Shown here piece after piece: positions 30,223-54,709 of a stretch of DNA of 64,000 nt. Under the pieces are notes generated by a model. That model was not told where the DNA came from. It did no database searches and saw only the letters and a list, made by a program, of their open reading frames with translations. Each line of letters opens with the position of its first letter. The stretch's first letter is position 1. The position numbers and the translations under genes were made by a program. Source of the stretch: a virus; IMG/VR virus record IMGVR_UViG_3300039191_000589, positions 46,098-110,097 of that record. The stretch is one strand, 5' to 3'.

Positions 30223-30456
30223 ATGGGTAAATGTACTTGGTGTAATTGTCCTGATGAAGAACATGATTATTATGTAGAATGTCCTTTAATTGATGGTAAA
30301 TTATTATGTGATGTATGTTGTAAATATAATATTATGGCTGATGATGCTGTTGATTTTGTTAAGGGAGTTACTAATAAAGATATTACTAGAGGAGAAATAA
30401 TTGATACTTGTAGAAATTGTGTAAAGAAAATAAAAGAAGTGACTAAGAATGGTTAA
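30223..30456 (+). CDS. Small Cys-rich protein
   Basis: CTWC, ECP, CDVCC, CRNC. Confidence 0.65.
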   Translation: MGKCTWCNCPDEEHDYYVECPLIDGKLLCDVCCKYNIMADDAVDFVKGVTNKDITRGEIIDTCRNCVKKIKEVTKNG

Positions 30457-30754
30457 TAAATATAATTTTGATGATTTAAATAATATAAATAGTATTAATC
30501 AAAATAATGATTATAATAAAATAAAAGATATTGATATGGAAATATCAGTTGAATTGGGTAAAACTACAATGTCCATTGATAATATACTTAATTTACAAAA
30601 AAAATCAGTAATTGAATTAGATAAACTAATTGGTGATGATGTTGAAATTAAAGCTAATGATAAAATTATAGCTAAAGGTGAAGTAGTAACATTTGATGAT
30701 AAATTTGGAGTAAGAATTACTAAAATTTTAAAGGGTGACTCTTATGTCTACTAG
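30449..30754 (+). CDS. fliN: FliN-like flagellar switch protein (SPOA/FliMN_C domain)
   Basis: DIDMEISVELGKTTMSIDNILNL...VIELDKLIGDDVEIKANDKIIAKGEVV...FGVRITKI. Confidence 0.9.
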   Translation: MVNKYNFDDLNNINSINQNNDYNKIKDIDMEISVELGKTTMSIDNILNLQKKSVIELDKLIGDDVEIKANDKIIAKGEVVTFDDKFGVRITKILKGDSYVY

Positions 30755-34897: not shown

Positions 34898-35293
34898 ATG
34901 AATATTGGTTTTATAGGTTATAGTGCAAGTAAATTTGATAGTGATAAAGCTTATAAAATTATTAGAAATATTTTTAAAAATAAAATTGACCCTTTAGATA
35001 AGGATATAAAAATAGTTTCAGGAGCTACGAATTTAGGAATTCCTAAAATAGTATATGAAATTGCAGATAAAAAAAATTATTATACTATTGGAATAATGTG
35101 TTCTAAGGGGTTTAATTATGAAATGTTTGATGTTAATAAATTATATGTCGAAGGTAATGAATGGGGAGAAGAAAGTGAATTATTTTTAGATACCATCGAT
35201 ATTCTTTTTAAAGTTGGTGGCGGAGAACAATCTAAAAAAGAATTAAATAAAGCTAAAAAAAGAGGAATTAAAACATTTGAATATGATTTATAA
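34898..35293 (+). CDS. SLOG-superfamily (LOG/DprA-like) protein
   Basis: IGFIGYS, IVSGATNLGIP, TIGI, VGGGEQSKKE. Confidence 0.65.
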   Translation: MNIGFIGYSASKFDSDKAYKIIRNIFKNKIDPLDKDIKIVSGATNLGIPKIVYEIADKKNYYTIGIMCSKGFNYEMFDVNKLYVEGNEWGEESELFLDTIDILFKVGGGEQSKKELNKAKKRGIKTFEYDL

Positions 35294-35318
35294 TAACCAC
35301 ATTTGTGGTTATTTTTTT
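35292..35318 (+). terminator. Intrinsic terminator
   Basis: AATAACCAC / GTGGTTATT + T run. Confidence 0.8.
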
Positions 35319-35337
35319 ATTTTTTATTAAAAAAATA

Positions 35338-35366
35338 TTTACAAAATAAAATTTACATGATATAAT
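35338..35366 (+). promoter_or_regulatory. SigA-type (early) promoter
   Basis: TTTACA-17 bp-TATAAT with extended TG; same architecture as 24372. Confidence 0.8.
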
Positions 35367-35396
35367 ATTATTGTAACATAAAAAGGAGGAGATAAT

Positions 35397-35852
35397 ATGA
35401 AATTTGATGATTTAATTAATAATGTTATTGAATATCCTAACGAAGAATTATTAAATGGAATTGAAAATAATACTATGTATCGTTATGTATCAAATTTCTT
35501 TGTTAATGGAATAATTAATTATGTAGATATTTATTATGCAATTACTATTAAAAGGTATGTAGGTGGGTGTAAATTAAATTTTGATACTACCATAACTAAT
35601 GAATTGGACCAACAAGGAAGATACCATACTGAATATAATAAATTATCAGATGATGTTTTAGTTTTAGCAGGAACTGAAAATGAATTGTGGATGTTTTGGT
35701 CAGATCGTGATGTAAGTGATTGTAAAATTTTTAGGACTAATAAAGATATTACAAAAGAACAATTTAAGAAATTATTTATTAATTGGATTAAAGAAAAAGG
35801 CTATGATCATTATTATGAATTACCCATTCCAAATGGATGGTGTAAAATATAA
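35397..35852 (+). CDS. Hypothetical protein (monocistronic, probably early)
   Basis: Own promoter, RBS AGGAGG and terminator. Confidence 0.75.
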   Translation: MKFDDLINNVIEYPNEELLNGIENNTMYRYVSNFFVNGIINYVDIYYAITIKRYVGGCKLNFDTTITNELDQQGRYHTEYNKLSDDVLVLAGTENELWMFWSDRDVSDCKIFRTNKDITKEQFKKLFINWIKEKGYDHYYELPIPNGWCKI

Positions 35853-35890
35853 TATATAATAATAAGGTATAAACTATAAAATAACCATTT

Positions 35891-35921
35891 AAGATCACCC
35901 AATAAAGGGTGGTCTTTTTTT
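35891..35921 (+). terminator. Intrinsic terminator
   Basis: AAGATCACCC / GGGTGGTCTT + T run. Confidence 0.8.
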
Positions 35922-36040
35922 ATTATAGGGAGGTTATTTAAAAAAAATTTAAATTTTAGTAATAAATTAGTAATAATTAAGAAACAATCGAATAGATATA
36001 TACTAAATAAGGTAAAAAAATGAAAAGAGGTGTTAAAAAA

Positions 36041-36355
36041 GTGTTTTGTGAAGATTGTTTGGTTAATGTTATTATTCCTAAGTTAAAAGATAATGATTTG
36101 CTTATCATGGAATACTTATACAATCATGGAATTACACTTCCCCAAACAAGTAAAATGCAAGATGAAATCATTGAAGAAACTGGATTATCAAATTTTAAAG
36201 GATGGAAAGCTGTATATAGTTTAAGATGTTATAATTTAGTTAAAAAAATTCAAAAAGGCCGTGCAAATTATTATTACCTAACAAAAGATGGTAAAAGAGC
36301 ATTGAGCATTTTTTCTGAGCAAATTGCTAATGAGCATGCTGAACAAGAGGTTTAA
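36041..36355 (+). CDS. Winged-helix DNA-binding protein (TubR-like position)
   Basis: EIIEETGLS...AVYSL...LV...GRANYYYLTKDGK wHTH pattern; GTG 36041 follows RBS AGAGGTG. Confidence 0.75.
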   Translation: MFCEDCLVNVIIPKLKDNDLLIMEYLYNHGITLPQTSKMQDEIIEETGLSNFKGWKAVYSLRCYNLVKKIQKGRANYYYLTKDGKRALSIFSEQIANEHAEQEV

Positions 36356-36393
36356 TAATTTATTTTAATAAATCATTTAAGGAGGAAGATAAT

Positions 36394-37590
36394 ATGCTTA
36401 AATTTGGAATGTTGTGCTTAGGTCAAGGTGGAGGAAATATTGGTGAATATGCTTATACGAAGAACTTTGAGGTGGTAGTAGCTAATACTGCTAAAGTGGA
36501 TTTAAAACAGTTAAAGTATATTCCTGAAAATGATCGTATTCATTTAGGTGGACATGGTGCTGGTAGAGATAGACAAGTTGGTGTTGATGCTTTTATTGAA
36601 AATGCTGAAGAAATTTATGAAAAATGCCTTAATAAGTTTGAAGATTGTGATGCTGTATTTGCCGTTGGAACTGGTGGAGGTGGTACTGGATCAGGAGCAT
36701 TACCTGCAGCACTTGAAATGTTATCTAGTACATTTAAATATGTAGGCTGTATAATTGGATTACCAGCTAAAAATGAAGCACCTAGGGCCCAAATGAACAC
36801 TGTAGAATGCTTTTCAGAATTATCTCAATTAAATGAATTAGGATCAGTATTTATTGTAGATAATGAGGAAACAAAAAAGATGAACCCTAATACTTCACGG
36901 AGAGATATTTATCGACTTACTAATCGCCGACTTATAGATTGTCTTAACGAACTTAATCAATTAACGGATAAAATGTCTTATGTTGACAATTTTGATGCTA
37001 ATGATTTATTAAGTATTATTCAAGAACGTGGCTATACTCATATCACTAAAACTAGTTATTATCCTACCAATAGTGAAAATAAATATAATATTTCTGAGAA
37101 AATTAGAAAAAGTTGGGAAAAAAGCTATCAACCTAAATTTGATCTTAGCACTGTTGTAAAAGGAGCTTTAATTGGGATAATCCCTGAAGAAATATCTATT
37201 GAAGTTGAAAGTGATTTAATCTTTAAGGATAATGGTCTCCCTTATGATTTCAAAGATATATATTTTCGTCCTAATCCTAATGAATTAGAAAAAAAGGCTG
37301 GCAAATCTAAAAATACCTTTTATACTTTATTGTCTGGATTAAAGTTTCCTCAGTCTAGATTGGATCAAATTAAAAATGATATTAATAAGGTTGAAGATAA
37401 GTTAGTTAATAATTATAAAAATTCAGTAAACCAAAAAATTAAAAGTCAAAGTTATAATAGTAAATTTTCCCAAAGTGGATCCCCAATGTCTCATAAATTA
37501 AACAATTTAAGATCAAATAATAATAATGATGATGGAAAAAAGAAAAAAATGAACGTAATGGATCAACTATCAAAATATCGTGAAAAATAA
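36394..37590 (+). CDS. Tubulin/FtsZ-family GTPase (TubZ/RepX-like)
   Basis: LGQGGGNI, GAGRD, GGGTGSG signature, IVDN, T7-like NFDANDL. Confidence 0.92.
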   Translation: MLKFGMLCLGQGGGNIGEYAYTKNFEVVVANTAKVDLKQLKYIPENDRIHLGGHGAGRDRQVGVDAFIENAEEIYEKCLNKFEDCDAVFAVGTGGGGTGSGALPAALEMLSSTFKYVGCIIGLPAKNEAPRAQMNTVECFSELSQLNELGSVFIVDNEETKKMNPNTSRRDIYRLTNRRLIDCLNELNQLTDKMSYVDNFDANDLLSIIQERGYTHITKTSYYPTNSENKYNISEKIRKSWEKSYQPKFDLSTVVKGALIGIIPEEISIEVESDLIFKDNGLPYDFKDIYFRPNPNELEKKAGKSKNTFYTLLSGLKFPQSRLDQIKNDINKVEDKLVNNYKNSVNQKIKSQSYNSKFSQSGSPMSHKLNNLRSNNNNDDGKKKKMNVMDQLSKYREK

Positions 37591-37623
37591 AGTAGAAAAG
37601 GGGGTATAATCCCCCTTTTTACT
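37591..37623 (+). terminator. Intrinsic terminator after tubulin gene
   Basis: AGTAGAAAAGGGGG / CCCCCTTTTTACT. Confidence 0.75.
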
Positions 37624-37674
37624 TAATAAGTATTAAATAAATATTGGCTAAAAATTAACAACGGAGGTTGTATT

Positions 37675-38091
37675 ATGAATCAGAAAAAAATAATTATAAT
37701 TTTATTATTATTGTGTTTATTTGTAAATTGTTCAATTGCATTAGGTAATAATGGAAATAATAAAAAAACTAATAATAAACAACAATCTAAAATCAGTATT
37801 CCTGATTCTGTTCCAGATGAATATATTGATGAATATATTAGACAGTCTAAAGCCCTTAGAAAAGCAATTGATTATCTTGATTTTATTGTTGAGTTAATTC
37901 GTTTAGCTGCCGCTGCTTATTTAGGACTACATGTAACAATTATAGGTTATCAAATTTACCGTTTAGATAATGGAATAGAACATTCTAAACAAAATTTTAA
38001 AAAAGCTGCTTATGGCTTATTCTTTGTATTTTGGGGCCAAGCATTGGCAAATTGGTTTATGGCAAAATTATTTGATATACTTTTTGGATAG
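37675..38091 (+). CDS. VirB2/TrbC-like pilin candidate
   Basis: Signal peptide then two hydrophobic helices flanking KQNFKKAAYG; context. Confidence 0.55.
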   Translation: MNQKKIIIILLLLCLFVNCSIALGNNGNNKKTNNKQQSKISIPDSVPDEYIDEYIRQSKALRKAIDYLDFIVELIRLAAAAYLGLHVTIIGYQIYRLDNGIEHSKQNFKKAAYGLFFVFWGQALANWFMAKLFDILFG

Positions 38092-38103
38092 GAGGCGGCA
38101 GTA

Positions 38104-38256
38104 ATGCTTAACAATTGGGATGAGTTATTATATGAAATCTCAACTATTCTTTTTGGATTATGTTGTGGGCTAATGGGGTTTGTTGTAACTTATTATTTAT
38201 TAGGTTGGATAGGTGATTTTATCATAAAAGTAATTTTAAGGGGGTTACTAACATGA
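38104..38256 (+). CDS. 50-aa membrane peptide (not in track)
   Basis: RBS GGAGG; MLNNWDELLYEISTILFGLCCGLMGFVVTYYLLGWIGDFIIKVILRGLLT. Confidence 0.65.
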   Translation: MLNNWDELLYEISTILFGLCCGLMGFVVTYYLLGWIGDFIIKVILRGLLT

Positions 38257-38378
38257 TTTTTAATATTTTAAGAATTACTTTCTCTTTTACAGTGGGAGTT
38301 TATTGTTTTCAATTTGCAATTAAAAAATTTCATAATTTTTTTAGAAGTAATAGGGATGAACACTATAAAATTTATTAA
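38253..38378 (+). CDS. 41-aa hydrophobic peptide (not in track)
   Basis: ATGA overlap with previous ORF, RBS AAGGGGG; MIFNILRITFSFTVGVYCFQFAIKKFHNFFRSNRDEHYKIY. Confidence 0.55.
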   Translation: MIFNILRITFSFTVGVYCFQFAIKKFHNFFRSNRDEHYKIY

Positions 38379-38393
38379 AGAGAGGGGTTAAAT

Positions 38394-39302
38394 ATGCCTG
38401 ATAAAGCATTAAAATTATTAGAAAAAATATCAGGAGTGTTAGATAAATTTTGGACATTTATTACTAACATTCCTGAAAAAGCTTATGATTCTTTAGCTTA
38501 TATTATGAAAGAAATGGTTGATTTATTAATTAAATTTCCTAGAATTACATCATTTCCTGAAATTATTGAAGTGTGGCAAGTAGTATTAGTATTATCACTA
38601 TCTATGTTAGGATTAGTATTTATTTATATAGCAGTGCGTAATAGAATATCTTTGAATAGTAATATTATTAGATCAATTGAAATCAAACAAGTTATTGCTA
38701 GAACTTTTTATATGGGCTTTTTCATTATTTTGAGTAGAACCTTTGTAGATTGGCTTATTATGTTAAACAATGTATTAATTAATGTATTAATGCATCATTT
38801 TGATATTCGAAAAGTAATAGATCACATTGGTAATTCTCATTTTGGGAAAGATATAATAGCAACCGCAATAATAGGGTATCAAATATACCTAGTTGTGTGG
38901 ATTATGATTCAATATTGGTTAAGAGTTACGGAAGTATTAGTGATGTATGTTTCTAGCCCTGTTATGTATTTATTATGGGTTAATCCAGAGTGGGGAGGGT
39001 ACTTATCTAGCTGGTTAAAACGAATTAGCTCATTAATTTTTACACAATTAGCTCAAATACTAATATTAATTATTCATGGGCATTTAGTTTTTAAATTTTT
39101 TGTTTCAGGATCAATTTCAAGTTTAGCTTTAGGGGTAGCTGGATTAATTTTAATGAAAAAAACTCCAGCCTTTTTTAAAATGTTTATTGCCCAAACAAAT
39201 TCATTGCAAATTATGACGGGGACTTATGATAAAATTTCTAATTCTAATACTGTTAAAAAAATTAAAAATAAAATGTCAGGGGGTAATGATGACGATGAGT
39301 AA
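38394..39302 (+). CDS. VirB6/TrbL-like polytopic membrane protein
   Basis: 5-6 hydrophobic segments; RxxE...SP...W...W pattern of Gram-positive VirB6-like proteins. Confidence 0.7.
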   Translation: MPDKALKLLEKISGVLDKFWTFITNIPEKAYDSLAYIMKEMVDLLIKFPRITSFPEIIEVWQVVLVLSLSMLGLVFIYIAVRNRISLNSNIIRSIEIKQVIARTFYMGFFIILSRTFVDWLIMLNNVLINVLMHHFDIRKVIDHIGNSHFGKDIIATAIIGYQIYLVVWIMIQYWLRVTEVLVMYVSSPVMYLLWVNPEWGGYLSSWLKRISSLIFTQLAQILILIIHGHLVFKFFVSGSISSLALGVAGLILMKKTPAFFKMFIAQTNSLQIMTGTYDKISNSNTVKKIKNKMSGGNDDDE

Positions 39303-39588
39303 AGATAAATTATCAACTTGGATTCCGCGAAATTTAAATGAGGAAGATAAAATTGATTTAGGTTTTGGTATTAAATTAACTTGGTCCAATTTACCTTTAA
39401 TTCTAGGAGGAGGAACAATGGGGTATCTTTTATCTACAAAATACAATGATTTCTTAATGAAAACAGCAATTATTTTAATGTGTGTAGTTCCTCCTTATGT
39501 ATTTTGGAAAATAGCTCTTAATGAACAGAATCCAATTGATGTAATGTGGAATATGATAATTTTTATAAGAAAATTATTAAGGGGGTAA
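39295..39588 (+). CDS. PrgI/VirB3-like membrane protein
   Basis: IPRNLNEEDKI..G..LT motif then two TM segments; directly before VirB4; start 39289 or 39295 after AGGGGG. Confidence 0.65.
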   Translation: MSKDKLSTWIPRNLNEEDKIDLGFGIKLTWSNLPLILGGGTMGYLLSTKYNDFLMKTAIILMCVVPPYVFWKIALNEQNPIDVMWNMIIFIRKLLRG

Positions 39589-39592
39589 TAAT

Positions 39593-41284
39593 ATGGTGAC
39601 GGTTAATACTAATATTCATAATGGTAATCAAATTGGTATAATAGAAATTGAACCAACTAATATTTTAATGAAAGATGAAGATTATAAAATTCAAATAATG
39701 GAAAATTTCAAAAAACTAGTAAATTCAATTAATACTTCAATTCAAATATTGTGTAGCAGTGATAATTTTAGTAGTAATAAATTTAGTATTGAAGGGTATG
39801 ACGAATATAATACTTTAATTAATAATAAAATTAATAACGTTGTAAAAAAGAAATTTAAAATAATAGTAAATAATGATGATGAGAGTATATTGAGAAATAA
39901 TTTAAAGACTATTAAAAGACATTTAAAATCTTGTAGCATACAATGTAGCGATTATAAAATTACTACTTATGATAATATTTGTAGTGATGAATTAAATGTG
40001 GACTATATGCAAATTAATGATCAATATGTTAAAACGTTTTATGTAACTGATTATCCTCATAGTTGTTCTTTTGGGTGGTTAAAAGATATATATAATAGTG
40101 AATTAAATGTAGATATTAGTTTCTTTATTCATCCTGTATCAAAATCTGATGCTGAAGAATATTTAACAAAAAAATTAAATCAAAACACCTCTAATTCTTC
40201 ATTAGAAGATGAAAAAGATGTAGTAAATGATAAATATGATGAACGAATTAATAGTGCCATTAAAATGAGAAAACAATTAAGAAAAAACAAATGTAAATTC
40301 TTTTTTACATCCTTTTATATAACATTAAAGGCTGATAATATCAACCAATTAAACCGCGAGAGTGAATATCTGAGGACATTAATGTCAGGTTTAAATGTTA
40401 ATATTAAAAATAGTTATTTACGCCAAGAGGATGCATATAAGTGCACTAGAGCCTTTGGGAGAGATGTATTAGAAAAATATTATAATTTAACTACTAAACA
40501 ATTAGGGTGCTTTTTTCCATTTACCAATTCAAATATTATTGATAAGAAAGGAATATTGGTTGGGGATAATATTGTGAACTCCAGTTTGGTTTTTTTAGAT
40601 CCTTTTAAATACGATTCTTATTTAATGTTTATCATTGGAAAAGTAGGTGGGGGAAAGAGTTATTTATCAAAATTATTATGTTTAAGATTACTACAAAAAG
40701 GAGTAAAAATTGATATTTTTGATAAAGAGGGGGAATATTTACAATTAAAAGAACTAACCAATTCACCAAATTTACGGGTTCATAATTATAATAATTATTC
40801 TGATTACCTTCCTATGTTAGAAAGATATGTGTATGATATGGATAATAATAATGAATTACAAAAAAGGATGTTATTTATAGATGAATTTTGGCAATTTGTT
40901 GATAACACTAATAAAGAATTTTTAGAGTATGTTAAATATATTACTCTTACTTCACGAAAAAAACATCAAGCATTATGTGCTATTAGCCAAGAAATAGAAC
41001 ATTTATTAGAAACCCCAGAAACTTATACTATTATAAAACAAGCAAGTATTAAAGCTCTTATGAAGTCAGAACCAAGTGAGGCTAGAATGATAAAAGAGGA
41101 ATTAAATTTAACTGAGTCTGAGGTTAATTTTTTAATTTCCGCTGATAATGAAGGTTTATTATTAGCTGATAATAAACAGGTTCAATTTAAAGCTTTATCT
41201 ACAGATAAAGAAGATAAAATTATTACTACTGATCCTTCACAAATTTTACAATTAAGAGAGGAGGGTAAACGTGGGATTATTTAA
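39593..41284 (+). CDS. virB4: VirB4-like ATPase
   Basis: FFPF, Walker A GKVGGGKS, DKEGEY, Walker B FIDEFW, RK...ISQ. Confidence 0.8.
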   Translation: MVTVNTNIHNGNQIGIIEIEPTNILMKDEDYKIQIMENFKKLVNSINTSIQILCSSDNFSSNKFSIEGYDEYNTLINNKINNVVKKKFKIIVNNDDESILRNNLKTIKRHLKSCSIQCSDYKITTYDNICSDELNVDYMQINDQYVKTFYVTDYPHSCSFGWLKDIYNSELNVDISFFIHPVSKSDAEEYLTKKLNQNTSNSSLEDEKDVVNDKYDERINSAIKMRKQLRKNKCKFFFTSFYITLKADNINQLNRESEYLRTLMSGLNVNIKNSYLRQEDAYKCTRAFGRDVLEKYYNLTTKQLGCFFPFTNSNIIDKKGILVGDNIVNSSLVFLDPFKYDSYLMFIIGKVGGGKSYLSKLLCLRLLQKGVKIDIFDKEGEYLQLKELTNSPNLRVHNYNNYSDYLPMLERYVYDMDNNNELQKRMLFIDEFWQFVDNTNKEFLEYVKYITLTSRKKHQALCAISQEIEHLLETPETYTIIKQASIKALMKSEPSEARMIKEELNLTESEVNFLISADNEGLLLADNKQVQFKALSTDKEDKIITTDPSQILQLREEGKRGII

Positions 41285-43586
41285 TAATTTTAAACAACAA
41301 AAAGGAGAAAAATTTAATTCAGAGTGTTTTAAAATTAATTTTGATATTAACCGAAAATCAATTGAAGAATACCAAATGATGTTAAGTAATATCTATGGTT
41401 TACAGTTTATTAATAAACATGAATATACCCCTAAATTTACTTTTGGAATTATTGTTGAAGAAGATCAATATGATTTTTATGCTGTTTGTCCTGAGGAATA
41501 TAGTAATATCATTAAAGAACAACATAAGATAATACACCCACATATTAGATATTCTTCTTTTAATGACCCTCTGAAACAATTTGAAAATTATTTAAGTAAT
41601 GGTAAAATGCATTATATTAGTGGATACAGGTTAATGTTAAATGATAATACTGATAAATCGATACAAACACCTAACAAATCAAGATTTTTATTAAATATTA
41701 TATCAAATATGATGGATGATAAATATAATGATAAAAGTATTTTTGAGATTACTTTTAAACCTATAAATAATAACAATAATATTAATAATAATAAAATATT
41801 AAATACATTAGATACAACTGTAAAAGGATTAAGTTATGCTATGGATTTTTTCTTTAATAGTAATTTAAGTGATCCTTATAAGAATAAAGAGAAAACAAAG
41901 ATTAAAGATAATAAAAAAGATAACAGCAATAAATTTACTGCAAAATTTAATGTTGATATAAAAATTATATGTAAATCTAAAAGTAAACAAAGATCTTTAG
42001 ATAAAGTTAAAAGTGTTAGTGCATCATTTTCTAATCTTAATAAAAATTCTAAATTTAATGCTATTAAGTTAAAACATGATGATATTATTAATCGTCAATA
42101 TAATCATAAAAATATATTAACTGTTGAAGAAATTTCTCAATTTATGCATTTGCCTCATGATATAGGTGAAGAAAATTATACTAGACTATATGATGATAGA
42201 GTACCAAGCAAAGGAATAGTATATGGTGATAGCAATGGTAAAGATGTAGCTTTTCCAATGGAAAAAATTAGCCCTGAAAATTATAGTAAAAAGTATAAAG
42301 AAATAGAAAAATATATTGATGATTTTTCTAAACCATTAGTAATTACAGGGCGTCAAGGTAATGGTAAATCAGAATGGATAGTAAATTTAGCAATAGCTGT
42401 AGCAAAATGTGGGATTTCAGTAATCATAGTAGACCCTAAAGTAGATACTCAAAAAAGATTTATAGAGAGTTTACCTAAAAGTGAAATGGATAGGTTAGAT
42501 TATTTAAATTATGGTGATTTAAGGCATCCTCCAGCTATGAATTTATTTCGACAAAGAAAAGATAATGATCCTATAGAAAATTCATTAATTACATCATCTT
42601 TTATTGCTTTAATGAAAAAACACTCACGCCACTGGGGATTTAAAATGCAAAGAATGCTCCAAAGAGCTTGTGAGGCTGTATTATTAAATCAAACAAGTAC
42701 ATTAAATGAATTAGATTTACTTTTAAATGATCCATTATTTAGAGAGCATATTATAGAAGTAATGGAAGGTAAACTAAATGATAATGATCAAAAAAATAAA
42801 GCCCATATAAGAAAATTATTAAGATATTGGAAAAAATTTCATAATGATGATCAAAAGGATATTGATAAAAAAATCGAACCAGCTATGAATGTTATTGGAC
42901 CATTTATAGATAATCAAATTATTAAGACAATAGTTGGCCAAGAAGAATGTTATGATTTTAGAGAAGCTGCTGATAATGGGAGAATAACTATTGTAAATAT
43001 TCCAGAAGGTTCGTTAGAAGAAAATACTAAAATATTATCATCAATTATCAATAAAAGAATTTGGTTAGATATGCAATCACGAGCTGATAGTGAATTAAAG
43101 GATCGTTATCCAACATTTTGGGTTATGGATGAAGCTCATGAAATTTTAGATGAGGAATTTACTGGTATATTAACAAAGGCACGTGCATATCGATTAGGAG
43201 TGGCATTAATTACACAAGGATTAACTAATTTTAGAAGTAGGGGAATGGATAATATGAAAGACTTAATAGAAACTAATTGTCAAAAGAAAATAACTTTTAA
43301 TATATCATCGTCTGAAAGTAGGCAATTAGCTGAAGAATTTGCTCCTTTGACTCTTAAGGATTTATCTAATTGTCCTAAATATCATTTTTATGCTAAAACA
43401 TTTTTAAAATCAGGGGAAATATCTGACCCATTTTTTGTTCACGCACCTTTACCAGCTAACAAAGAAAGGGATTATAATAAGTTTATTGAAAATCATAAAA
43501 AGGGGAGAAAAACAATGGAGGAAATTGAAATAGAGATTGAAGAGAGGATGGATCATATTAGAACAATGAATAAATTAAAGCAATAA
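41271..43586 (+). CDS. virD4: VirD4/TraG-like coupling-protein ATPase (FtsK-HerA superfamily)
   Basis: GRQGNGKS, IVDPK, all-alpha domain, VMDEAHE, KARAYRLGVALITQ. Confidence 0.75.
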   Translation: MGLFNNFKQQKGEKFNSECFKINFDINRKSIEEYQMMLSNIYGLQFINKHEYTPKFTFGIIVEEDQYDFYAVCPEEYSNIIKEQHKIIHPHIRYSSFNDPLKQFENYLSNGKMHYISGYRLMLNDNTDKSIQTPNKSRFLLNIISNMMDDKYNDKSIFEITFKPINNNNNINNNKILNTLDTTVKGLSYAMDFFFNSNLSDPYKNKEKTKIKDNKKDNSNKFTAKFNVDIKIICKSKSKQRSLDKVKSVSASFSNLNKNSKFNAIKLKHDDIINRQYNHKNILTVEEISQFMHLPHDIGEENYTRLYDDRVPSKGIVYGDSNGKDVAFPMEKISPENYSKKYKEIEKYIDDFSKPLVITGRQGNGKSEWIVNLAIAVAKCGISVIIVDPKVDTQKRFIESLPKSEMDRLDYLNYGDLRHPPAMNLFRQRKDNDPIENSLITSSFIALMKKHSRHWGFKMQRMLQRACEAVLLNQTSTLNELDLLLNDPLFREHIIEVMEGKLNDNDQKNKAHIRKLLRYWKKFHNDDQKDIDKKIEPAMNVIGPFIDNQIIKTIVGQEECYDFREAADNGRITIVNIPEGSLEENTKILSSIINKRIWLDMQSRADSELKDRYPTFWVMDEAHEILDEEFTGILTKARAYRLGVALITQGLTNFRSRGMDNMKDLIETNCQKKITFNISSSESRQLAEEFAPLTLKDLSNCPKYHFYAKTFLKSGEISDPFFVHAPLPANKERDYNKFIENHKKGRKTMEEIEIEIEERMDHIRTMNKLKQ

Positions 43587-43590
43587 TTAG

Positions 43591-43622
43591 TAACCAGCTT
43601 AGTGGCTGGTTATTTTTTTTTT
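43591..43622 (+). terminator. Intrinsic terminator closing the T4SS-like cluster
   Basis: TAACCAGC / GCTGGTTA + T10. Confidence 0.85.
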
Positions 43623-44179: not shown

Positions 44180-45142
44180 ATGTCTAAAAGATTAGGGTGG
44201 TTAGAAGAGTTTGCTCAACAGCAAGCTAAAAAAATGCAAAAACAAGCTAGTGTTGAAAATAAAGAAGCTACGACTGTAAAAGAAGGAGATAAAATTATTG
44301 TTGATACTGATGTAGCACCTAAAGCTGATCAGGATGATGAAATAACTTATCAAAATAATCCATATAAAGTAGTGGATGCTGATTTTGAAGATGATCATGG
44401 TCCTGGTTTAGTATTAAGAGCATTATCTATCGAGGCTGATGAGGATGAAGATGATGATGTAGAAATTGAAGTTGAAGATGATGACGTTGATATAGATGAT
44501 GTTGATTTCGGTGATTTAGAAGATGATCTTGATGAATTAGATAATTATGAAACTGAAGAAGTTGAAGTTGATGATACTGAAGATATTGAAATTGATGAAT
44601 TAGGTCCTGAGGAAGATAATGAATTTTTAGACGAAGATTTAGAAGTAGTTGATGAAGAACCTGGTGATGATTTAGGTTTGGATGAAGACAATGAATTTAT
44701 CGATGAAGATTTAGAAGTTATTGATGAAGGGCCTACTGGTGACCAATTAGAAGATAATTGGACTGGTGATGTTGGTGAAGGTAAAGAAGATGCTCAAGAA
44801 TATGCCCGAAATAATCCTGGCCACCAATATCATATTGAAACTCAAGATAGAGATGTTAAGGATTTCAATGATGCTGCTGATAAAACTCAACAGCAAATTG
44901 AAGAAGAAAGAAATACTGATCGAACTACAGTAGATGGATATTATTCTCATAATAATATTTTAAATGATATTGTAGAAGAAGCTATAGATACTGAACAAGA
45001 AACTAGTAAAATGGTAAATAAAACAATGGAAGAACCAAGTGAAGTTAATCAAGAACCAATAGGGCAAGATCCAGAAGATGAAGTTAAAACTGACAAAGGT
45101 TTAAATATTAGAAATACTGTTTTAGATAATATATTAAATTAA
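44180..45142 (+). CDS. Highly acidic protein, paralogue of 8412
   Basis: QEYARNNPG; RBS AGGAGG. Confidence 0.75.
   Translation: MSKRLGWLEEFAQQQAKKMQKQASVENKEATTVKEGDKIIVDTDVAPKADQDDEITYQNNPYKVVDADFEDDHGPGLVLRALSIEADEDEDDDVEIEVEDDDVDIDDVDFGDLEDDLDELDNYETEEVEVDDTEDIEIDELGPEEDNEFLDEDLEVVDEEPGDDLGLDEDNEFIDEDLEVIDEGPTGDQLEDNWTGDVGEGKEDAQEYARNNPGHQYHIETQDRDVKDFNDAADKTQQQIEEERNTDRTTVDGYYSHNNILNDIVEEAIDTEQETSKMVNKTMEEPSEVNQEPIGQDPEDEVKTDKGLNIRNTVLDNILN
44594..44734 (+). repeat. In-frame 72-bp tandem duplication
   Basis: DELGPEEDNEFLDEDLEVVDEEP / DDLGLDEDNEFIDEDLEVIDEGP. Confidence 0.8.
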
Positions 45143-45203
45143 AAGGTATTTAAAAATAAATCGGTAAAATTATAAAATAAAATTTGTAGGGAGGATTTTA
45201 ATA

Positions 45204-45746
45204 ATGAAAAAAAGAGCTAAATTAAATAAAAAAGTATTAAGTTTAGGTAAGAAAGTTGCAAAGGCTGTTGAATTAGAAACTGAGGAGATTTTACAGGATG
45301 CTGAGGAACTTATTAAAAAACACGTTCCAGCACGATATGTAAAAAAAGCATTAGCAAAATTAGAAAATAAAATTGATTCTGAAGGTATAGAGGCTTTATT
45401 TGATAAAGCAGTAACACGTGAAGCTCTTAGAAAAACAGCAGATAAAACTGCTTCTGCTGAAGAAATTAATGAGGCACTTGATACATTTGCTGACGCTATT
45501 GTAGCGGAAATGGAAGAAGTATTAGAACATGCTGATAATTATATGACTAATAAAGTTAAAACAGCTAAAAGTGAGAAACTCCAATATGAAATTGAATCAA
45601 AATTAAAGAAAACAGTTGAGGCTAAATTAAAAGAAAAAGGTATTTATTCTAAATTTTCTAGAGTTGTTGAAAAGCCTAAAACTAAAAATACAGAAGCACA
45701 AAAGAAAGAAGCTAATTCTTTCTTAGAAAAAATGAAACAATTATAA
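45204..45746 (+). CDS. Helical protein with internal duplication, probable head-internal protein
   Basis: AKAVELETEEILQDAE / ADAIVAEMEEVLEHAD; several KTA motifs. Confidence 0.7.
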   Translation: MKKRAKLNKKVLSLGKKVAKAVELETEEILQDAEELIKKHVPARYVKKALAKLENKIDSEGIEALFDKAVTREALRKTADKTASAEEINEALDTFADAIVAEMEEVLEHADNYMTNKVKTAKSEKLQYEIESKLKKTVEAKLKEKGIYSKFSRVVEKPKTKNTEAQKKEANSFLEKMKQL

Positions 45747-45766
45747 TATAAAATTAATTTTTAATC

Positions 45767-45802
45767 AGAACAGGGGACCAAATTATTGGTCCTCTGTTTT
45801 TT
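45767..45802 (+). terminator. Intrinsic terminator
   Basis: AACAGGGGACCAA / TTGGTCCTCTGTT + T run. Confidence 0.85.
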
Positions 45803-45838
45803 ATTTTATAATTGATATTTAATTAGGAGGTGTATTTA

Positions 45839-46990
45839 ATGGATAAATTAAATAATTTATATCATAGAGGAGACAGCGTATTTTTATATATTAAATTTAA
45901 ACCACAAAATGATAATGAGAATATAGAAACTATAGAAAATGCTGAAGTAAGAATATTACAAGATCAAGGTGAAACTATTAAAGAAATATTAAAATGGACA
46001 AAAATGGATAATCTTAGTGAAGATGAATATTATTATAATTATCAAATACCTTATGATGGCGATATTGGTGAATACCAAGTAATATATAATGGTAATGTAA
46101 ATGGTAAAACTGCTCATATAGTAAAAACATTTCATGTAATTCCTAATTCTGAAAAATATGAAAATGCTATTAAATTATATGGTTATGCTTATGATTTTAG
46201 AACTGATAATCCTTTGGTTGATGTATCATTAAAATTAAAAAATAGAAATAATAATGAAATTGTTTATCAAAGTTTAACTAATCAAGATGGATATTGGGAG
46301 GCTTATGTTTATCCTAATGAATATGAATTTATTTTTAGCAAAGAAGGGTTTGATGATAGAAAAGTAGCTGCTCAAATTGGAAATGAATCTAATGAAATTC
46401 AATTTAATAATATTAGTTTAAAACCAATTAATGCTGAAAAAAAAGGGAATGGAATGTATGAAATATCTGATCAATATGTTACTAAAAAAGGAACTCCTTT
46501 AAGTGGATTAAAAGTAGAAATTGCTAATATTTTTGATCCTAAAACTATCATAGCTAAAGATGCTACTGATGATAATGGTGAATGGATTTGCTATTTAGAT
46601 CCAGGTGATTATTTAATTAATGTTCAAGGAGAATCAATGGGGATTACATTTGATAAAACAATTAAAGTTAAAATAGATGATGAAGGTGAATATGATTTTG
46701 TTGATTTATCTAATAATGTTGCAGTTGCAAGTAATTCTGAGTATATAGGTCGAGGAGATGGAGAAATAACAGTAACTGATAAAGTTCAAAATAAACAGGG
46801 TGATGGAATTATTGATGTTCAAATAAATGCTTTTAATAAAGGGGATAAATTAATAGAGGAAAATATTATTGCTCGTGATTATACAAACACTAATGGTGAA
46901 TGGACATTAAAATTAGACCCAGGTAAATATATAATAGAATTTTATCATCCTAATTTCAAAACAATTACCAATGAACGCATAGTAGAATAG
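45839..46990 (+). CDS. Virion protein with Ig-like and three transthyretin/Cna-B-like repeats
   Basis: TNQDGYW, TDDNGEW..YLDPGDY, TNTNGEW..KLDPGKY; ATG 45839 after AGGAGG. Confidence 0.7.
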   Translation: MDKLNNLYHRGDSVFLYIKFKPQNDNENIETIENAEVRILQDQGETIKEILKWTKMDNLSEDEYYYNYQIPYDGDIGEYQVIYNGNVNGKTAHIVKTFHVIPNSEKYENAIKLYGYAYDFRTDNPLVDVSLKLKNRNNNEIVYQSLTNQDGYWEAYVYPNEYEFIFSKEGFDDRKVAAQIGNESNEIQFNNISLKPINAEKKGNGMYEISDQYVTKKGTPLSGLKVEIANIFDPKTIIAKDATDDNGEWICYLDPGDYLINVQGESMGITFDKTIKVKIDDEGEYDFVDLSNNVAVASNSEYIGRGDGEITVTDKVQNKQGDGIIDVQINAFNKGDKLIEENIIARDYTNTNGEWTLKLDPGKYIIEFYHPNFKTITNERIVE

Positions 46991-47094
46991 TTTTTTTGAT
47001 ATATTTAAAAGTTAATTGATTGCTTATTAAAAAGTATATAAAAAATAGAAGTACAATTGATTAATATCCTAAAAAATAAAGAGGTGAATTGTAT

Positions 47095-49296: not shown

Positions 49297-49321
49297 TAAT
49301 AAATAATAAAAATATTTAATC

Positions 49322-49351
49322 AATCCCCTGTGGCATCACAGGGGATTATTT
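49322..49351 (+). terminator. Intrinsic terminator
   Basis: AATCCCCTGTG / CACAGGGGATT. Confidence 0.8.
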
Positions 49352-49383
49352 AATTCTAATTAAATAATTAAAATATTTTCTAT

Positions 49384-49413
49384 ATATACTAGGATTAATC
49401 CTAGTATATTTTT
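49384..49413 (+). terminator. TACTAGG hairpin, copy 1
   Basis: ATATACTAGGATTAATCCTAGTATAT + T run. Confidence 0.75.
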
Positions 49414-49514
49414 ATGTACTATTCTATTTTTAACTTCATAAGGAAATGAATATTAAAAAATTAAAAATATATTTAAAATATTGAATCAATAAAACATAGG
49501 AGGTGTTTTTATAA

Positions 49515-51194: not shown

Positions 51195-51209
51195 GAGGTG
51201 TAATTTTAA

Positions 51210-53627: not shown

Positions 53628-53693
53628 TAATATTCACATACTAATATAATAAAAAAAGTAATATATTTTTTAATAAAAAGGGAGGTGTTTTAA

Positions 53694-54648: not shown

Positions 54649-54709
54649 ATGATATATATGTTAAATAATTATATTAAAAAAATAGAAGATATAAGAAAGG
54701 TGGGATAAA

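What the first reader, a model, noticed from the sequence alone, without database searches (positions are those of the whole stretch)
36041..43622. Tubulin-linked minimal type IV secretion/conjugation module inside a large phage
Seen: contiguous wHTH, tubulin/FtsZ GTPase, pilin-like protein, two membrane peptides, VirB6-like, PrgI-like, VirB4-like and VirD4-like genes, bounded by terminators and wedged between accessory and virion genes. No relaxase, cell-wall hydrolase (VirB1) or VirB8-like gene is recognisable in the cluster, and the VirD4-like protein has no obvious N-terminal TM anchor. Established: TubR/TubZ partition plasmids and the clostridial phage c-st; VirB4/VirB6/PrgI/VirD4 are the core of Gram-positive conjugation machines. 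Inference: a phage-plasmid with a stripped membrane translocase, positioned by a tubulin filament, that moves DNA or proteins across a membrane with little wall (septum, forespore, cell contact) rather than doing classical conjugation.
Basis: partly seen in the sequence, partly recalled or inferred. Interest (0 to 1): 0.9.

Follow-up and report, generated by a model that had tools for sequence, protein, structure and literature searches.

The report
Stripped type IV secretion module, megaphage
A relative of the giant Bacillus phage G carries, next to a tubulin-type DNA-positioning gene pair, a conserved cut-down set of type IV secretion genes; parts of this set sit beside actin-like or tubulin-like genes in several other phage lineages of spore-forming bacteria, which suggests a way of moving phage DNA without virions that has not been tested.

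Summary
The window is a fragment of a phage-G-like megaphage, with portal, protease and capsid genes, and it runs collinear with phage G.

The block is not an ICE insertion or a misassembly. It is the counterpart of phage G gp137-138 and gp149-156. Of these, only the two ATPases had been noted in print ("function entirely unknown").

New findings:
- The set is pilin-like, two micro-membrane proteins, VirB6/TrbL, PrgI/VirB3, VirB4 and a T4CP-like ATPase without a membrane anchor.
- Its closest cellular relatives are the mostly relaxase-less Patescibacteria T4SS, in the same gene order but with a CHAP hydrolase.
- The T4CP-like ATPase belongs to a family (SPP1 gp32) found in 143 phage records, all but one from endospore-forming hosts.
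- In SPO1-like, CP-51, 0305phi8-36 and Tsamsa phages this ATPase sits in a cassette with an actin-like protein, a pilin-like protein (not detected in Tsamsa) and a Replic_Relax nuclease-family protein. D6E has the first two.

Tubulin adjacency itself is not conserved. It is 7 kb away in phage G and absent upstream in L006, and a hairpin separates the two units here. The recurring filament/T4CP theme still supports a functional link.

Best guess: virion-independent DNA translocation, to a forespore or a neighbouring cell. Function is untested.

The parts
35891..35916 (+). terminator-like hairpin closing the upstream unit
   Evidence: 10-bp stem with 5 GC pairs followed by a T run (sequence)
35956..35976 (+). 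two 10-bp direct repeats (TTAGTAATAA) 11 bp apart, upstream of the wHTH gene; possible operator, not a tubC-like array
   Evidence: The motif is common in this AT-rich window, so the evidence is weak.
36020..36355 (+). TubR-like winged-helix protein (111 aa; an alternative GTG start lies at 36041)
   Evidence: Pfam wHTH hits. 29% identical to phage G gp137, E 4e-17. Sits directly upstream of tubZ. No match to solved TubR.
36394..37590 (+). TubZ-type tubulin/FtsZ GTPase (398 aa) with a basic C-terminal tail
   Evidence: 43% identical to phage G gp138.
37600..37614 (+). hairpin plus T-run between tubZ and the secretion genes (likely terminator or attenuator)
37675..38091 (+). VirB2/T4SS-pilin-like membrane protein (138 aa; signal peptide plus hydrophobic C-terminal half)
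   Evidence: Orthologs phage G gp150 (T4SS_pilin above cut-off; TrbC 6e-4) and L006.
38104..38256 (+). 50-aa membrane micro-protein
   Evidence: 37% identical to the L006 48-aa ORF, E 2e-4. Counterpart of phage G gp151. One to two membrane segments.
38253..38378 (+). 41-aa micro-protein (hydrophobic N-terminus, basic C-terminus), overlapping the previous stop codon
   Evidence: Counterparts by position and size in L006 (40 aa) and phage G gp152
38394..39302 (+). VirB6/TrbL-like polytopic membrane protein (302 aa)
   Evidence: Atlas 0.94 and TM-score 0.73 to TrbL families of Bacillota. 28% identical to phage G gp153. BLAST E 3e-5 to a Saccharibacteria VirB6.
39295..39588 (+). PrgI/VirB3-like protein (97 aa from the ATG at 39295; the longest ORF starts at 39226)
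   Evidence: Predicted to bind the VirB4-like N-terminal domain: ipSAE 0.71 vs best control 0.00.
39593..41284 (+). VirB4-family ATPase (563 aa) with intact Walker A and B motifs
   Evidence: Its first ~100 residues match the separate TrsD-like protein of Patescibacteria loci.
41271..43586 (+). T4CP-like ATPase (771 aa; SPP1 gp32 / phrog_5156 family): VirB4-like N-terminal domain plus HerA/FtsK-type motor, no N-terminal membrane anchor
43589..43614 (+). terminator-like hairpin closing the module
   Evidence: 11-bp stem followed by a T run

Best explanation
What it is (well supported): a conserved, phage-encoded, cut-down monoderm-type type IV secretion apparatus in a phage-G-like megaphage. 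It is probably made in the infected cell rather than carried in the virion: in phage G the two ATPases were not found in the virion proteome.

Anatomy:
- A VirB6/TrbL channel protein, a VirB2-like pilin-type protein and two micro-membrane proteins sit in the cytoplasmic membrane.
- The PrgI/VirB3-like protein tethers the VirB4 ATPase to them.
- A second, soluble ATPase of the coupling-protein kind (VirB4-like N-terminal domain, TrwB/FtsK-like motor) delivers the substrate.

How it most likely works (inferred): the substrate is phage DNA. The machine moves it across a membrane without a virion, either into the forespore of a sporulating host (genome entrapment) or into a touching cell.

The neighbouring TubR/TubZ pair is a separate transcription unit. 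It probably binds and positions phage DNA and may hand it to the translocase. Actin-like pairs sit in the same place in related cassettes of other Bacillus phages.
For: Identity:
- Family and fold assignments.
- PrgI-like/VirB4 interface: ipSAE 0.71 vs best control 0.00; the runs agree in at least 87% of contacts; partner pLDDT at least 71. The mark was reached by 58 of 80 solved complexes and 2 of 110 mismatched pairs. A VirB3-VirB4 complex is solved, so this pass may reflect likeness to it.
- Motifs are intact.
- Same seven genes in the same order in phage G gp150-156 and in L006. Identities to phage G are 28-40% for the four genes detectable by BLAST.
- VirB4-like and T4CP-like homologs appear to share metagenomic contigs, judged by matching contig lengths of 29,308, 13,102 and 20,766 bp.
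- Same gene order in the Saccharimonadia locus L014 (pilin, VirB6, PrgI, TrsD-like plus VirB4, CHAP, T4CP). Every labelled hit among the closest cellular VirB4 relatives is Patescibacteria.
- Phage G gp155/156 were not found in the virion proteome.

DNA as the substrate:
- The T4CP-like protein is homologous over nearly its whole length to a bona fide T4CP (BLAST E 3e-20). That T4CP carries TrwB_AAD_bind, T4SS-DNA_transf and TraG-D_C above Pfam cut-offs.
- The motor domain fits TrwB at Z 25.1, rmsd 4.1 A over 364 residues.
- In CP-51, SP8 and 0305phi8-36 a Replic_Relax gene overlaps the end of the ATPase gene. In Tsamsa it follows the ATPase gene by 45 nt. In phage G it lies next to the module. 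The 0305phi8-36 match is just below Pfam's cut-off (23.6 vs 25.3 bits). Replic_Relax is a PD-(D/E)XK-fold family.

Filament link:
- Actin-like ALP genes lie in or beside the cassette in CP-51, SP8, D6E, 0305phi8-36 and Tsamsa, and TubZ lies there in this phage and phage G.
- Precedent: R1 ParM/ParR bind TraI, TraD and TraC and boost transfer (PMC4949242).

Spore link:
- The ATPase family occurs in 143 phage records. All but one come from endospore-forming genera.
- A terminase control shows 345 Staphylococcus, 69 Enterococcus, 55 Listeria and 26 Lactobacillus phages of the related type in the same collection. No phage of those genera appears among the ATPase hits.
- SPP1 gp32 is an early gene and non-essential for lytic growth (PMC6316719).
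- SPO1 forms virospores (PMC12991052).
- Phage G carries many sporulation genes.
- No wall hydrolase is present in the module.
Against: - No experiment bears on function in any of these phages.
- This window and the 110 kb available contain no Replic_Relax gene and no relaxase family.
- No VirB8-like or wall-hydrolase gene is present. That is hard to reconcile with crossing a thick wall to a neighbouring cell.
- The host of this phage is unknown, so a sporulation link is extrapolated.
- Restriction to phages of spore formers could simply reflect a shared Bacillus-phage gene pool.
- Fold comparison cannot tell the second ATPase from a VirB4 C-terminal domain (Z 27.0 vs 25.1), and its Pfam T4CP hits are below cut-off.
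- The closest cellular systems (Patescibacteria) are thought not to be conjugative.
- Tubulin adjacency is not conserved, and a hairpin separates the units.
Confidence: 0.45

Rival explanations
1. Protein or surface-structure secretion. The apparatus exports phage effector proteins, or assembles a pilin-based surface structure, to manipulate the host envelope or neighbouring cells. This is what is suspected for the relaxase-less Patescibacteria T4SS.
For: The closest cellular relatives are Patescibacteria T4SS, which mostly lack relaxases and are thought to be non-conjugative (preprint 10.1101/2025.01.22.634366). No relaxase-type gene occurs in this contig. A pilin-like gene leads the operon. 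Conserved downstream neighbours include a protein with prealbumin/SpaA-like Ig folds.
Against: No candidate effector is linked. The recurrent coupling of the T4CP-like gene to a Replic_Relax nuclease-family gene and to DNA-segregation filaments in other phages points to DNA.
Confidence: 0.2
2. DNA import. The machine pulls in the rest of the very long, non-permuted phage genome after a first segment has entered. Alternatively it takes up foreign DNA as nucleotide supply, in the manner of the ComB system.
For: The phage G genome is linear and non-permuted, with the module at 16-19% from one end. SPP1 gp32 is an early gene. The ATPase is soluble and could load onto incoming DNA. The module lies among nucleotide-metabolism genes. 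T4SS-based uptake is known from the Helicobacter ComB system (my own knowledge).
Against: SPP1, at 44 kb, has the ATPase yet should not need help to enter, and its gp32 is non-essential. Import does not explain Replic_Relax or the partition filaments. ComB-type uptake does not use a coupling protein.
Confidence: 0.1
3. Conflict system. The ATPase, the nuclease-family partner and the membrane proteins exclude superinfecting phages or resident plasmids/ICEs, or interfere with host conjugation or competence.
For: HerA/FtsK-type ATPases paired with PD-(D/E)XK nucleases are common in defence systems, and HerA complexes appear among the fold matches at Z 18-21. The SPP1 homolog is non-essential.
Against: VirB4 and TrwB match better than HerA (Z 27 and 25). 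A full set of VirB2, B3, B4 and B6 homologs is not expected for a defence nuclease. Conservation as a syntenic block across deeply diverged megaphages argues against fast-turnover defence cargo. No PADLOC search was run.
Confidence: 0.1
4. An ordinary integrated conjugative element or plasmid fragment, or an assembly chimera, rather than a phage feature.
For: T4SS genes normally belong to plasmids and ICEs. VirB4-like hits occur on 900 plasmid records, at 28% identity or less.
Against: Both flanks are collinear with phage G: thymidine kinase upstream, and gp159, gp160 and gp163 homologs downstream. GC is at the background 24-28%. All genes are co-oriented. No integrase or att-like repeats were seen. 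No G-like T4CP was found in 185,579 species genomes. No DNA match exists in the plasmid collection.
Confidence: 0.02

Closest known systems
Bacillus phage G gp137-138 and gp149-156 (JN638751; Donellivirus)
   Same: Orthologous genes in the same order: wHTH, tubulin, pilin-like gp150, micro-proteins gp151/152, VirB6-like gp153, PrgI-like gp154, VirB4 gp155 and T4CP-like gp156. BLAST identities are 28-43% for wHTH, tubulin, VirB6-like, VirB4 and T4CP-like. The PrgI-like proteins share a 36-residue match. The pilin-like and micro-proteins are matched by position, size and alignment. The flanks are collinear. gp155/156 are published as TraC/TraD-like, 'function entirely unknown', and were not found in virions (PMC12484599).
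   Different: Phage G has 7 kb (gp139-148) between tubulin and the module. That stretch includes a Replic_Relax gene (gp146) and a PhageMetallopep gene (gp149), both missing here. The window phage has about 25% GC and an unknown host. The membrane components were not mentioned in the passages of the phage G paper that I searched.
Patescibacteria (CPR) T4SS, related to the monoderm MPF-FATA conjugation machinery (preprint 10.1101/2025.01.22.634366)
   Same: Every labelled hit among the closest cellular VirB4 relatives is Patescibacteria (243-316 bits against the phage profile). Same order of pilin, VirB6, PrgI, VirB4 and T4CP. Mostly relaxase-less. The T4CP shares the long N-terminal domain.
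   Different: The CPR locus has a CHAP hydrolase, a membrane anchor on the T4CP, a VirB4 split into a TrsD-like part and a VirB4 part, and a larger VirB6. It lacks the two micro-proteins. It is chromosomal and cellular, not viral.
SPP1 gp31/31.1/31.2/32 and the SPO1-like, CP-51, 0305phi8-36 and Tsamsa cassette (phrog_5156 ATPase)
   Same: The T4CP-like ATPase is homologous over its full length, also lacks a membrane anchor, and is preceded by small membrane proteins (and, except in Tsamsa, a pilin-like protein). A cytomotive-filament gene lies in or next to the cassette in CP-51, SP8, D6E, 0305phi8-36 and Tsamsa, but not in SPP1, LysYB1 or Nachito. The SPP1 authors proposed a 'trans-membrane translocon' of unknown role.
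   Different: Those phages have no VirB4, VirB6 or PrgI homolog. They use actin-like (ALP/Alp7A-type) rather than tubulin-like filaments. Most couple a Replic_Relax gene to the ATPase. Tsamsa adds an M23 peptidase.
TubZRC partition systems (pBtoxis, pXO1 RepX, Clostridium phage c-st)
   Same: TubZ-type GTPase whose best solved matches are RepX and c-st TubZ. It is preceded by a small winged-helix gene and has a basic C-terminal tail.
   Different: No tubC-like iteron array was found. The wHTH shows no detectable similarity to solved TubR. No evidence for a plasmid prophage state.
Partition-conjugation coupling on plasmids (R1 ParM/ParR with TraI, TraD and TraC; R388 stbABC)
   Same: A DNA-segregation system is genetically and physically tied to the coupling protein and the VirB4-like ATPase (PMC4949242; PMC3098194 listed).
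   Different: Those are Gram-negative conjugative plasmids with canonical relaxases. Here the setting is a virulent-looking giant phage, and the link is inferred from gene neighbourhood only.

Membership tests
Type IV secretion system, monoderm (MPF-FATA/FA-like) | VirB4-family ATPase | tested here: met
   P-loop_TraG 2.4e-10 and DUF87. PDB VirB4 4ag5 at 3.7e-13 with the profile. The profile finds 5578 relatives, and the ones scanned carry AAA_10/P-loop_TraG. Walker A and B are intact.
Type IV secretion system, monoderm (MPF-FATA/FA-like) | VirB6/TrbL polytopic channel protein | tested here: met
   No Pfam hit. The Atlas gives TrbL_4/TrbL_5 clusters at 0.94, all ten best in one clan, with structural TM-score 0.73. 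About six hydrophobic segments. BLAST E 3e-5 to a Saccharibacteria VirB6.
Type IV secretion system, monoderm (MPF-FATA/FA-like) | VirB3/PrgI-type small membrane protein that binds VirB4 | tested here: met
   Atlas matches to PrgI/TcpE/DUF5592 at 0.87-0.89, which is a lead only. The L006 ortholog hits PrgI at E 1.2e-3, below cut-off. A shared N-terminal IPRNLN motif aligns with the PrgI part of a PrgI-VirB4 fusion. Complex model: ipSAE 0.71 vs best control 0.00; the mark was reached by 58 of 80 solved complexes and 2 of 110 mismatched pairs. A like complex is solved, so this shows likeness.
Type IV secretion system, monoderm (MPF-FATA/FA-like) | VirB2/T4SS-pilin-like protein | tested here: inconclusive
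   The window protein is sub-threshold (E 0.098). The positional ortholog phage G gp150 is above cut-off for T4SS_pilin (27.4 vs 26.6 bits) and hits TrbC at 6e-4. The three orthologs align at only 19-22% identity.
Type IV secretion system, monoderm (MPF-FATA/FA-like) | Type IV coupling protein (VirD4/TcpA family) with an N-terminal membrane anchor | tested here: inconclusive
   TrwB_AAD_bind (18.0 vs 20.5 bits) and TraG-D_C (18.7 vs 22 bits) are below cut-off. BLAST E 3e-20 over residues 29-709 to a Saccharimonadia T4CP that passes three T4CP Pfam cut-offs. The fold fits a VirB4 C-terminal domain at Z 27.0 (rmsd 3.2, 337 aligned) and TrwB at Z 25.1 (rmsd 4.1, 364 aligned), a near tie. The N-terminal domain is VirB4-like at Z 9.8 (rmsd 4.0, 199 aligned), but the model is poor, pLDDT 51. 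The membrane anchor is absent.
Type IV secretion system, monoderm (MPF-FATA/FA-like) | VirB8-like (PrgL/TcpC) scaffold | tested here: not met
   PF04335 and PF12642 find nothing in the 110-kb contig or in the whole phage G genome. Divergent VirB8-like folds cannot be excluded. No unassigned gene of suitable size lies in the operon.
Type IV secretion system, monoderm (MPF-FATA/FA-like) | Cell-wall hydrolase (VirB1 analogue) in the cluster | tested here: not met
   No CHAP in the contig or in phage G, and none among the nine genes. It is present in the Patescibacteria locus (CHAP) and in the Tsamsa cassette (Peptidase_M23). SLT and NlpC/P60 were not searched genome-wide.
Conjugative element | Relaxase plus oriT | tested here: not met
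   Relaxase, TrwC, Mob_Pre, Rep_trans and Replic_Relax HMMs find nothing in the 110 kb held, which is 26% of the genome. Phage G has Replic_Relax gp146 at 4e-25, next to its module. MOB_L, MOB_H, MOB_C and MOB_B were not searched. oriT was not testable.
TubZRC partition system | TubZ GTPase | tested here: met
TubZRC partition system | TubR DNA-binding adaptor encoded upstream | tested here: inconclusive
   A winged-helix protein sits in the right place and is conserved in phage G. There is no sequence match to solved TubR. No homologs were found for a fold model.
TubZRC partition system | tubC centromere repeats | tested here: not met
   Only two 10-bp direct repeats lie upstream, and no iteron array was found in 35250-36450.
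Phage-plasmid | Stable extrachromosomal prophage state (plasmid replication and partition, lysogeny control) | not testable with these tools
   Only the TubRZ-like pair points that way. Lysogeny was never observed for phage G. No G-like T4CP was found in isolate or MAG genomes of 185,579 species.
Bacillota-phage T4CP-like cassette (SPP1 gp32 / phrog_5156) | gp32-type ATPase preceded by small membrane proteins | tested here: met
   phrog_5156 at 2.5e-87. Full-length homology to CP-51 gp91, D6E, MRSA107, LysYB1 and Nachito. SPP1 gp32.
Bacillota-phage T4CP-like cassette (SPP1 gp32 / phrog_5156) | Replic_Relax gene coupled to the ATPase gene | tested here: not met
   A terminator follows the ATPase gene directly, and the contig has no Replic_Relax. 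It is present in CP-51, SP8, Tsamsa and phage G, and just below cut-off in 0305phi8-36.

The most novel reading that the evidence does not exclude
Giant phages of spore-forming bacteria encode their own complete mating-pore-like apparatus, while smaller relatives such as SPO1, CP-51, SPP1 and Tsamsa keep only the coupling ATPase, a pilin-like protein and a nicking-type protein. Fed by a tubulin- or actin-like filament, this apparatus transfers the phage genome without a virion, either into the forespore to make 'virospores' or directly into neighbouring cells. That would be a second, particle-free transmission route for lytic phages.
Probability: 0.25. Interest if true: 0.9.

Novelty: new variant of a known kind. 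Interest (0 to 1): 0.72.

Why it matters
T4SS are hallmarks of plasmids and ICEs. A conserved T4SS set in virulent-looking megaphages has been annotated only in passing, and no role has been assigned.

This work shows three things:
- The set is complete for a membrane translocon.
- Its nearest cellular kin are the enigmatic Patescibacteria T4SS.
- Its coupling-type ATPase belongs to a family found in 143 records of phages of spore formers, including the model phages SPP1 and SPO1. In several lineages it sits with actin-like partition genes and a Replic_Relax protein.

That turns a curiosity of one uncultivated contig into a hypothesis that standard genetics in Bacillus subtilis can test. The questions are how lytic phage genomes get into spores, or between cells, and why phages carry cytoskeletal genes. 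It also offers a culturable handle on a Patescibacteria-type T4SS.

Tried and rejected
- **Near-DNA searches:** no match for the 7.6-kb block in the phage or plasmid collections.
- **IMG/VR scans:** with the VirB4 protein and with its profile, no relatives other than the window's own record.
- **JGI metagenome scan:** one 5.5-kb locus only, L006.
- **The look-up of encoding contigs:** Synteny on the contigs that carry P0002-P0028, including a 390-kb contig, could not be read.
- **T4CP profile against PDB sequences:** nothing. The fold was needed.
- **hhalign of the two ATPase families:** they align only around Walker A (probability 64%). They are not close paralogs.
- **TubR-like protein:** no homologs from the word-indexed search and no solved TubR match. 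No fold model was attempted.
- **tubC search:** no repeat array.
- **N-terminal domain of the T4CP-like protein folded alone:** a poor model (pLDDT 51). Its VirB4 N-terminal-domain match (Z 9.8) is tentative.
- **Sequencing runs:** no RNA holder is listed.
- **Not run:** PADLOC and NCBIfam.
- **ICE or misassembly reading:** rejected on collinearity with phage G and on composition.
- **The 'F-like TraC/TraD' label in the phage G paper:** not adopted. The accessory proteins and best matches are of the monoderm/Patescibacteria kind.
- **The PHROG 2666 label 'terminase large subunit' for the VirB4-like protein:** rejected as a mislabel.

Full report
**Setting**

The window is bases 46098-110097 of a 110-kb IMG/VR viral record that CheckV rates 26% complete, which implies a genome of roughly 420 kb. 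GC is 21-31% throughout, with no step at the block, and nearly all ORFs of 80 aa or more lie on the + strand. PHROGs finds a portal (10380-13430, E 9e-143), a head maturation protease and a major head protein (18066-19004, E 3e-99). Upstream of the finding lie a UvrD helicase, a FliN-like protein, a radical SAM enzyme and thymidine kinase. Downstream lie Ig-fold, lectin-like and beta-helix proteins typical of fibres. So 'between accessory and virion genes inside a large phage' is right.

**The genes**

The nine ORFs are as described.
- The tubulin gene has the GGGTGSG signature. Its best solved relatives are plasmid and phage TubZ proteins, not PhuZ.
- The upstream 111-aa protein is a winged helix.
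- The VirB4 assignment is firm. A profile of nine orthologs finds 5578 relatives. The ones scanned carry AAA_10/P-loop_TraG, and one is a PrgI-VirB4 fusion.
- The 302-aa polytopic protein has no Pfam hit. It falls among TrbL/VirB6 clusters of Bacillota both by language-model features (0.94) and by predicted structure (TM-score 0.73).
- The PrgI-like protein most likely starts at 39295 and overlaps the VirB6-like stop codon. It shares an N-terminal IPRNLN motif with PrgI and has PrgI/TcpE/DUF5592 neighbours at 0.87-0.89.
- In a controlled complex prediction the PrgI-like protein docks on the N-terminal 340 residues of the VirB4-like protein through that motif. The score is ipSAE 0.71 against a best control of 0.00. 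The runs agree in at least 87% of contacts, and partner pLDDT is at least 71. The mark was reached by 58 of 80 solved complexes and 2 of 110 mismatched pairs. A VirB3-VirB4 complex has been solved, so this shows likeness rather than proof of binding.
- The pilin-like protein is sub-threshold here. Its positional ortholog in phage G passes the T4SS_pilin cut-off.
- The two micro-ORFs are conserved in order, size and motif in phage G and in L006.

**The second ATPase**

Its Pfam T4CP hits are just below cut-off. An AlphaFold model from 17 orthologs (pLDDT 79) has a C-terminal motor. That motor fits a VirB4 C-terminal domain (Z 27.0, rmsd 3.2 A, 337 residues) and TrwB (Z 25.1, rmsd 4.1 A, 364 residues) about equally, with HerA and FtsK lower.

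It is not a close paralog of the VirB4-like gene. It aligns over residues 29-709 with a Saccharimonadia protein that passes three T4CP Pfam cut-offs (E 3e-20). That protein has an N-terminal membrane helix and the phage protein has none.

Folded alone, the N-terminal 310 residues give a poor model (pLDDT 51). Its best match among 48,161 chains is the N-terminal domain of TrwK/VirB4 (Z 9.8, rmsd 4.0 A, 199 residues; the next best is 7.6). I therefore call it 'T4CP-like with a VirB4-type N-terminal domain'.

**Not an insertion**

The region is collinear with Bacillus phage G.
- Thymidine kinase corresponds to gp135.
- The wHTH and tubulin correspond to gp137/138, at 29% and 43% identity.
- The VirB6-like, PrgI-like, VirB4 and T4CP-like genes correspond to gp153-156. 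Identities are 28%, 32% and 40% for VirB6-like, VirB4 and T4CP-like, and the PrgI-like proteins share a 36-residue match.
- Homologs of gp159, gp160 and gp163 follow.

A 5.5-kb metagenome contig (L006) has the same seven genes. The VirB4-like and T4CP-like orthologs appear to share further contigs, judged by matching contig lengths of 29,308, 13,102 and 20,766 bp. This refutes the ICE or misassembly alternative.

The phage G genes gp155/156 have been annotated as VirB-like since the GenBank record. A 2025 paper calls them TraC/TraD-like, absent from the virion proteome, 'function entirely unknown' (PMC12484599). The membrane components were not mentioned in the passages of that paper that I searched.

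**Tubulin linkage**

The link is weaker than the title suggests.
- In phage G, ten genes (7 kb) lie between tubulin and the module.
- In L006 the gene upstream of the pilin-like gene is a PhageMetallopep protein.
- In the window a GC-rich hairpin with a T run sits 10 nt after the tubZ stop codon.
- No tubC-like repeat array was found.

**Missing parts**

Five relaxase-type HMMs, VirB8, TcpC and CHAP find nothing in the contig. The same searches over the whole phage G genome find one thing. It is gp146, a Replic_Relax protein (E 4e-25), on the opposite strand about 600 bp upstream of gp149. Replic_Relax is a PD-(D/E)XK-fold family, often fused to an HTH domain (PMC3424549). Annotators of other phages label it 'replication initiation by nicking'.

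**Relatives**

No G-like T4CP occurs in 185,579 species genomes. The VirB4 profile picks up Patescibacteria loci. They score 243-261 bits, among the best non-phage scores out of 1.84 billion representatives. The labelled top hits are Patescibacteria and Colwellbacteria.

Locus L014 reads TrbC/T4SS_pilin, VirB6, PrgI, a 204-aa protein, VirB4, CHAP and T4CP. The 204-aa protein matches the first ~100 positions of the phage VirB4 profile (E 3e-14).

The phage module is therefore that system with three differences. It lacks the hydrolase and the T4CP membrane anchor, its VirB4 is fused, and it has two extra micro-proteins. A preprint describes the Patescibacteria T4SS as related to the monoderm MPF-FATA machinery and as mostly relaxase-less.

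**A wider phage cassette**

The T4CP-like protein matches phrog_5156. With CP-51 gp91 as query, the family appears in 143 phage records. The organism names begin with:
- Bacillus: 129
- Geobacillus: 5
- 'Deep-sea' (thermophilic phage D6E): 2
- Lysinibacillus: 2
- Brevibacillus, Alicyclobacillus, Terrisporobacter, Clostridium and Microcystis: 1 each

That the named genera except Microcystis are endospore formers, and that D6E is a Geobacillus phage, rests on my own knowledge.

As a control, the SP8 terminase matches 345 Staphylococcus, 277 Bacillus, 69 Enterococcus, 55 Listeria and 26 Lactobacillus phage records. No phage of Staphylococcus, Enterococcus, Listeria or Lactobacillus appears among the ATPase hits.

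The family includes SPP1 gp32, an early, non-essential, anchor-less protein. The SPP1 authors suggested it might form a translocon with gp31.1/31.2 (PMC6316719).

Gene order in other lineages:
- CP-51 and SP8 (SPO1-like): pilin-like, actin-like ALP/Alp7A-type, a small protein, two or three micro-membrane proteins, ATPase, then an overlapping Replic_Relax gene.
- 0305phi8-36: ALP, pilin-like, ATPase and Replic_Relax, the last two just below Pfam cut-offs.
- Tsamsa: ALP, an M23 peptidase, ATPase and Replic_Relax.
- D6E: ALP and a pilin-like ORF next to the ATPase.
- LysYB1 and Nachito: small or membrane proteins and the ATPase, but no recognisable filament gene nearby.

So a cytomotive-filament gene accompanies this ATPase in five phage groups: actin-like in four (SPO1-like/CP-51, D6E, 0305phi8-36, Tsamsa) and tubulin-like in the G-like phages. 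Only the G-like phages add VirB4, VirB6 and PrgI.

**Reading**

Shown:
- the gene content and the homologies;
- conservation across deeply diverged megaphages;
- absence of the usual relaxases, VirB8 and hydrolase;
- the Patescibacteria kinship;
- the cross-lineage cassette and its host distribution.

Inferred: the substrate is DNA, the route is particle-free, and the filament positions the DNA.

Precedents exist. R1 ParM/ParR bind TraI, TraD and TraC and stimulate transfer (PMC4949242). Lytic Bacillus phages such as SPO1 are trapped in spores as 'virospores', and Par-like genes, including SPO1 ParM gene 27.9, have been suggested to help (PMC12991052).

The forespore route fits the missing wall hydrolase and the host range. 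The cell-to-cell route fits the analogy with self-transmissible versus mobilisable elements: a full pore in G-like phages, and only the T4CP-like ATPase plus a nicking-type protein elsewhere. It also fits the M23 peptidase in Tsamsa.

I cannot separate the two routes. Together they get 0.45. The rivals are protein secretion (0.2), DNA import (0.1), conflict or exclusion (0.1) and an ICE or assembly artefact (0.02).

**Limits**

- Three quarters of this genome is unseen, and its host is unknown.
- Several assignments rest on orthologs or sub-threshold scores.
- The host-range contrast is confounded by shared ancestry of Bacillus phages.
- The scan of genome contigs depends on short peptide patterns.
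- No expression data were found.
- The scan's earlier notes on this genome are first-reader notes on the same stretch. No look-alike was noted on other DNA.

Noticed in passing
window 39593-41284: The VirB4-like protein matches PHROG 2666 at E 1e-63, a family labelled 'terminase large subunit'. The label looks wrong for this family. Pipelines that rely on PHROGs would annotate the gene as a second terminase.
   Followed up: partly
L020 (MT835683.1) and 16 other 'Bacteriophage sp.' human-faecal contigs: Unverified small 'phage' contigs match the VirB4-like protein at about 20-29% identity. L020 has 56% GC, a 670-aa VirB4 and a possible VirB6-like gene. They look like fragments of conjugative elements rather than phages.
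   Followed up: partly
window 44180-46990: Genes conserved with phage G gp159 and gp160 follow the module. They encode a very acidic 320-aa protein, a lysine-rich coiled 180-aa protein, and a 386-aa protein with CarboxypepD_reg and SpaA-like prealbumin folds. Whether they belong to the secretion module, for example as an adhesin, is open.
   Followed up: partly
L001 16494-16952 (phage G gp149); L006 280-708; L025 4976-5698 (Tsamsa gp259): A PhageMetallopep-family protein sits directly upstream of the pilin-like gene in phage G and in L006 but is absent from the window contig. Tsamsa has an M23 peptidase at the comparable place. These may be accessory peptidases of the cassette.
   Followed up: partly
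L014 9260-11617 vs window 39593-41284: In the Patescibacteria loci VirB4 is split into a ~204-aa TrsD-like protein plus a 578-aa ATPase. In the phages the two parts are one 563-aa protein.
   Followed up: yes
window 30449-30754: A stand-alone FliN/FliMN_C homolog (E 1.3e-24) lies among phage accessory genes. Phage G is reported to carry a flagellar-operon protein near its tubulin gene.
   Followed up: partly
window 41271-43586 vs plasmids (H89-H100): The T4CP-like protein has 24%-identity matches on 235-275-kb plasmids of Clostridium botulinum and C. sporogenes, on many Bacillus plasmids, and on haloarchaeal plasmids. MOB-suite types most of these plasmids as non-mobilizable.
   Followed up: no
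window 47089-64000: A run of large proteins carries DUF2460, Laminin_G_3 and DUF1565 (beta-helix) domains. This is consistent with a tail-fibre or adhesin arsenal downstream of the module.
   Followed up: partly
L001 (phage G 79880-86378): The 7 kb that separates tubulin from the secretion genes in phage G includes a pyruvate phosphate dikinase-like gene and the Replic_Relax gene gp146 on the opposite strand. This looks like an insertion relative to the window phage, or a deletion in the window phage.
   Followed up: partly
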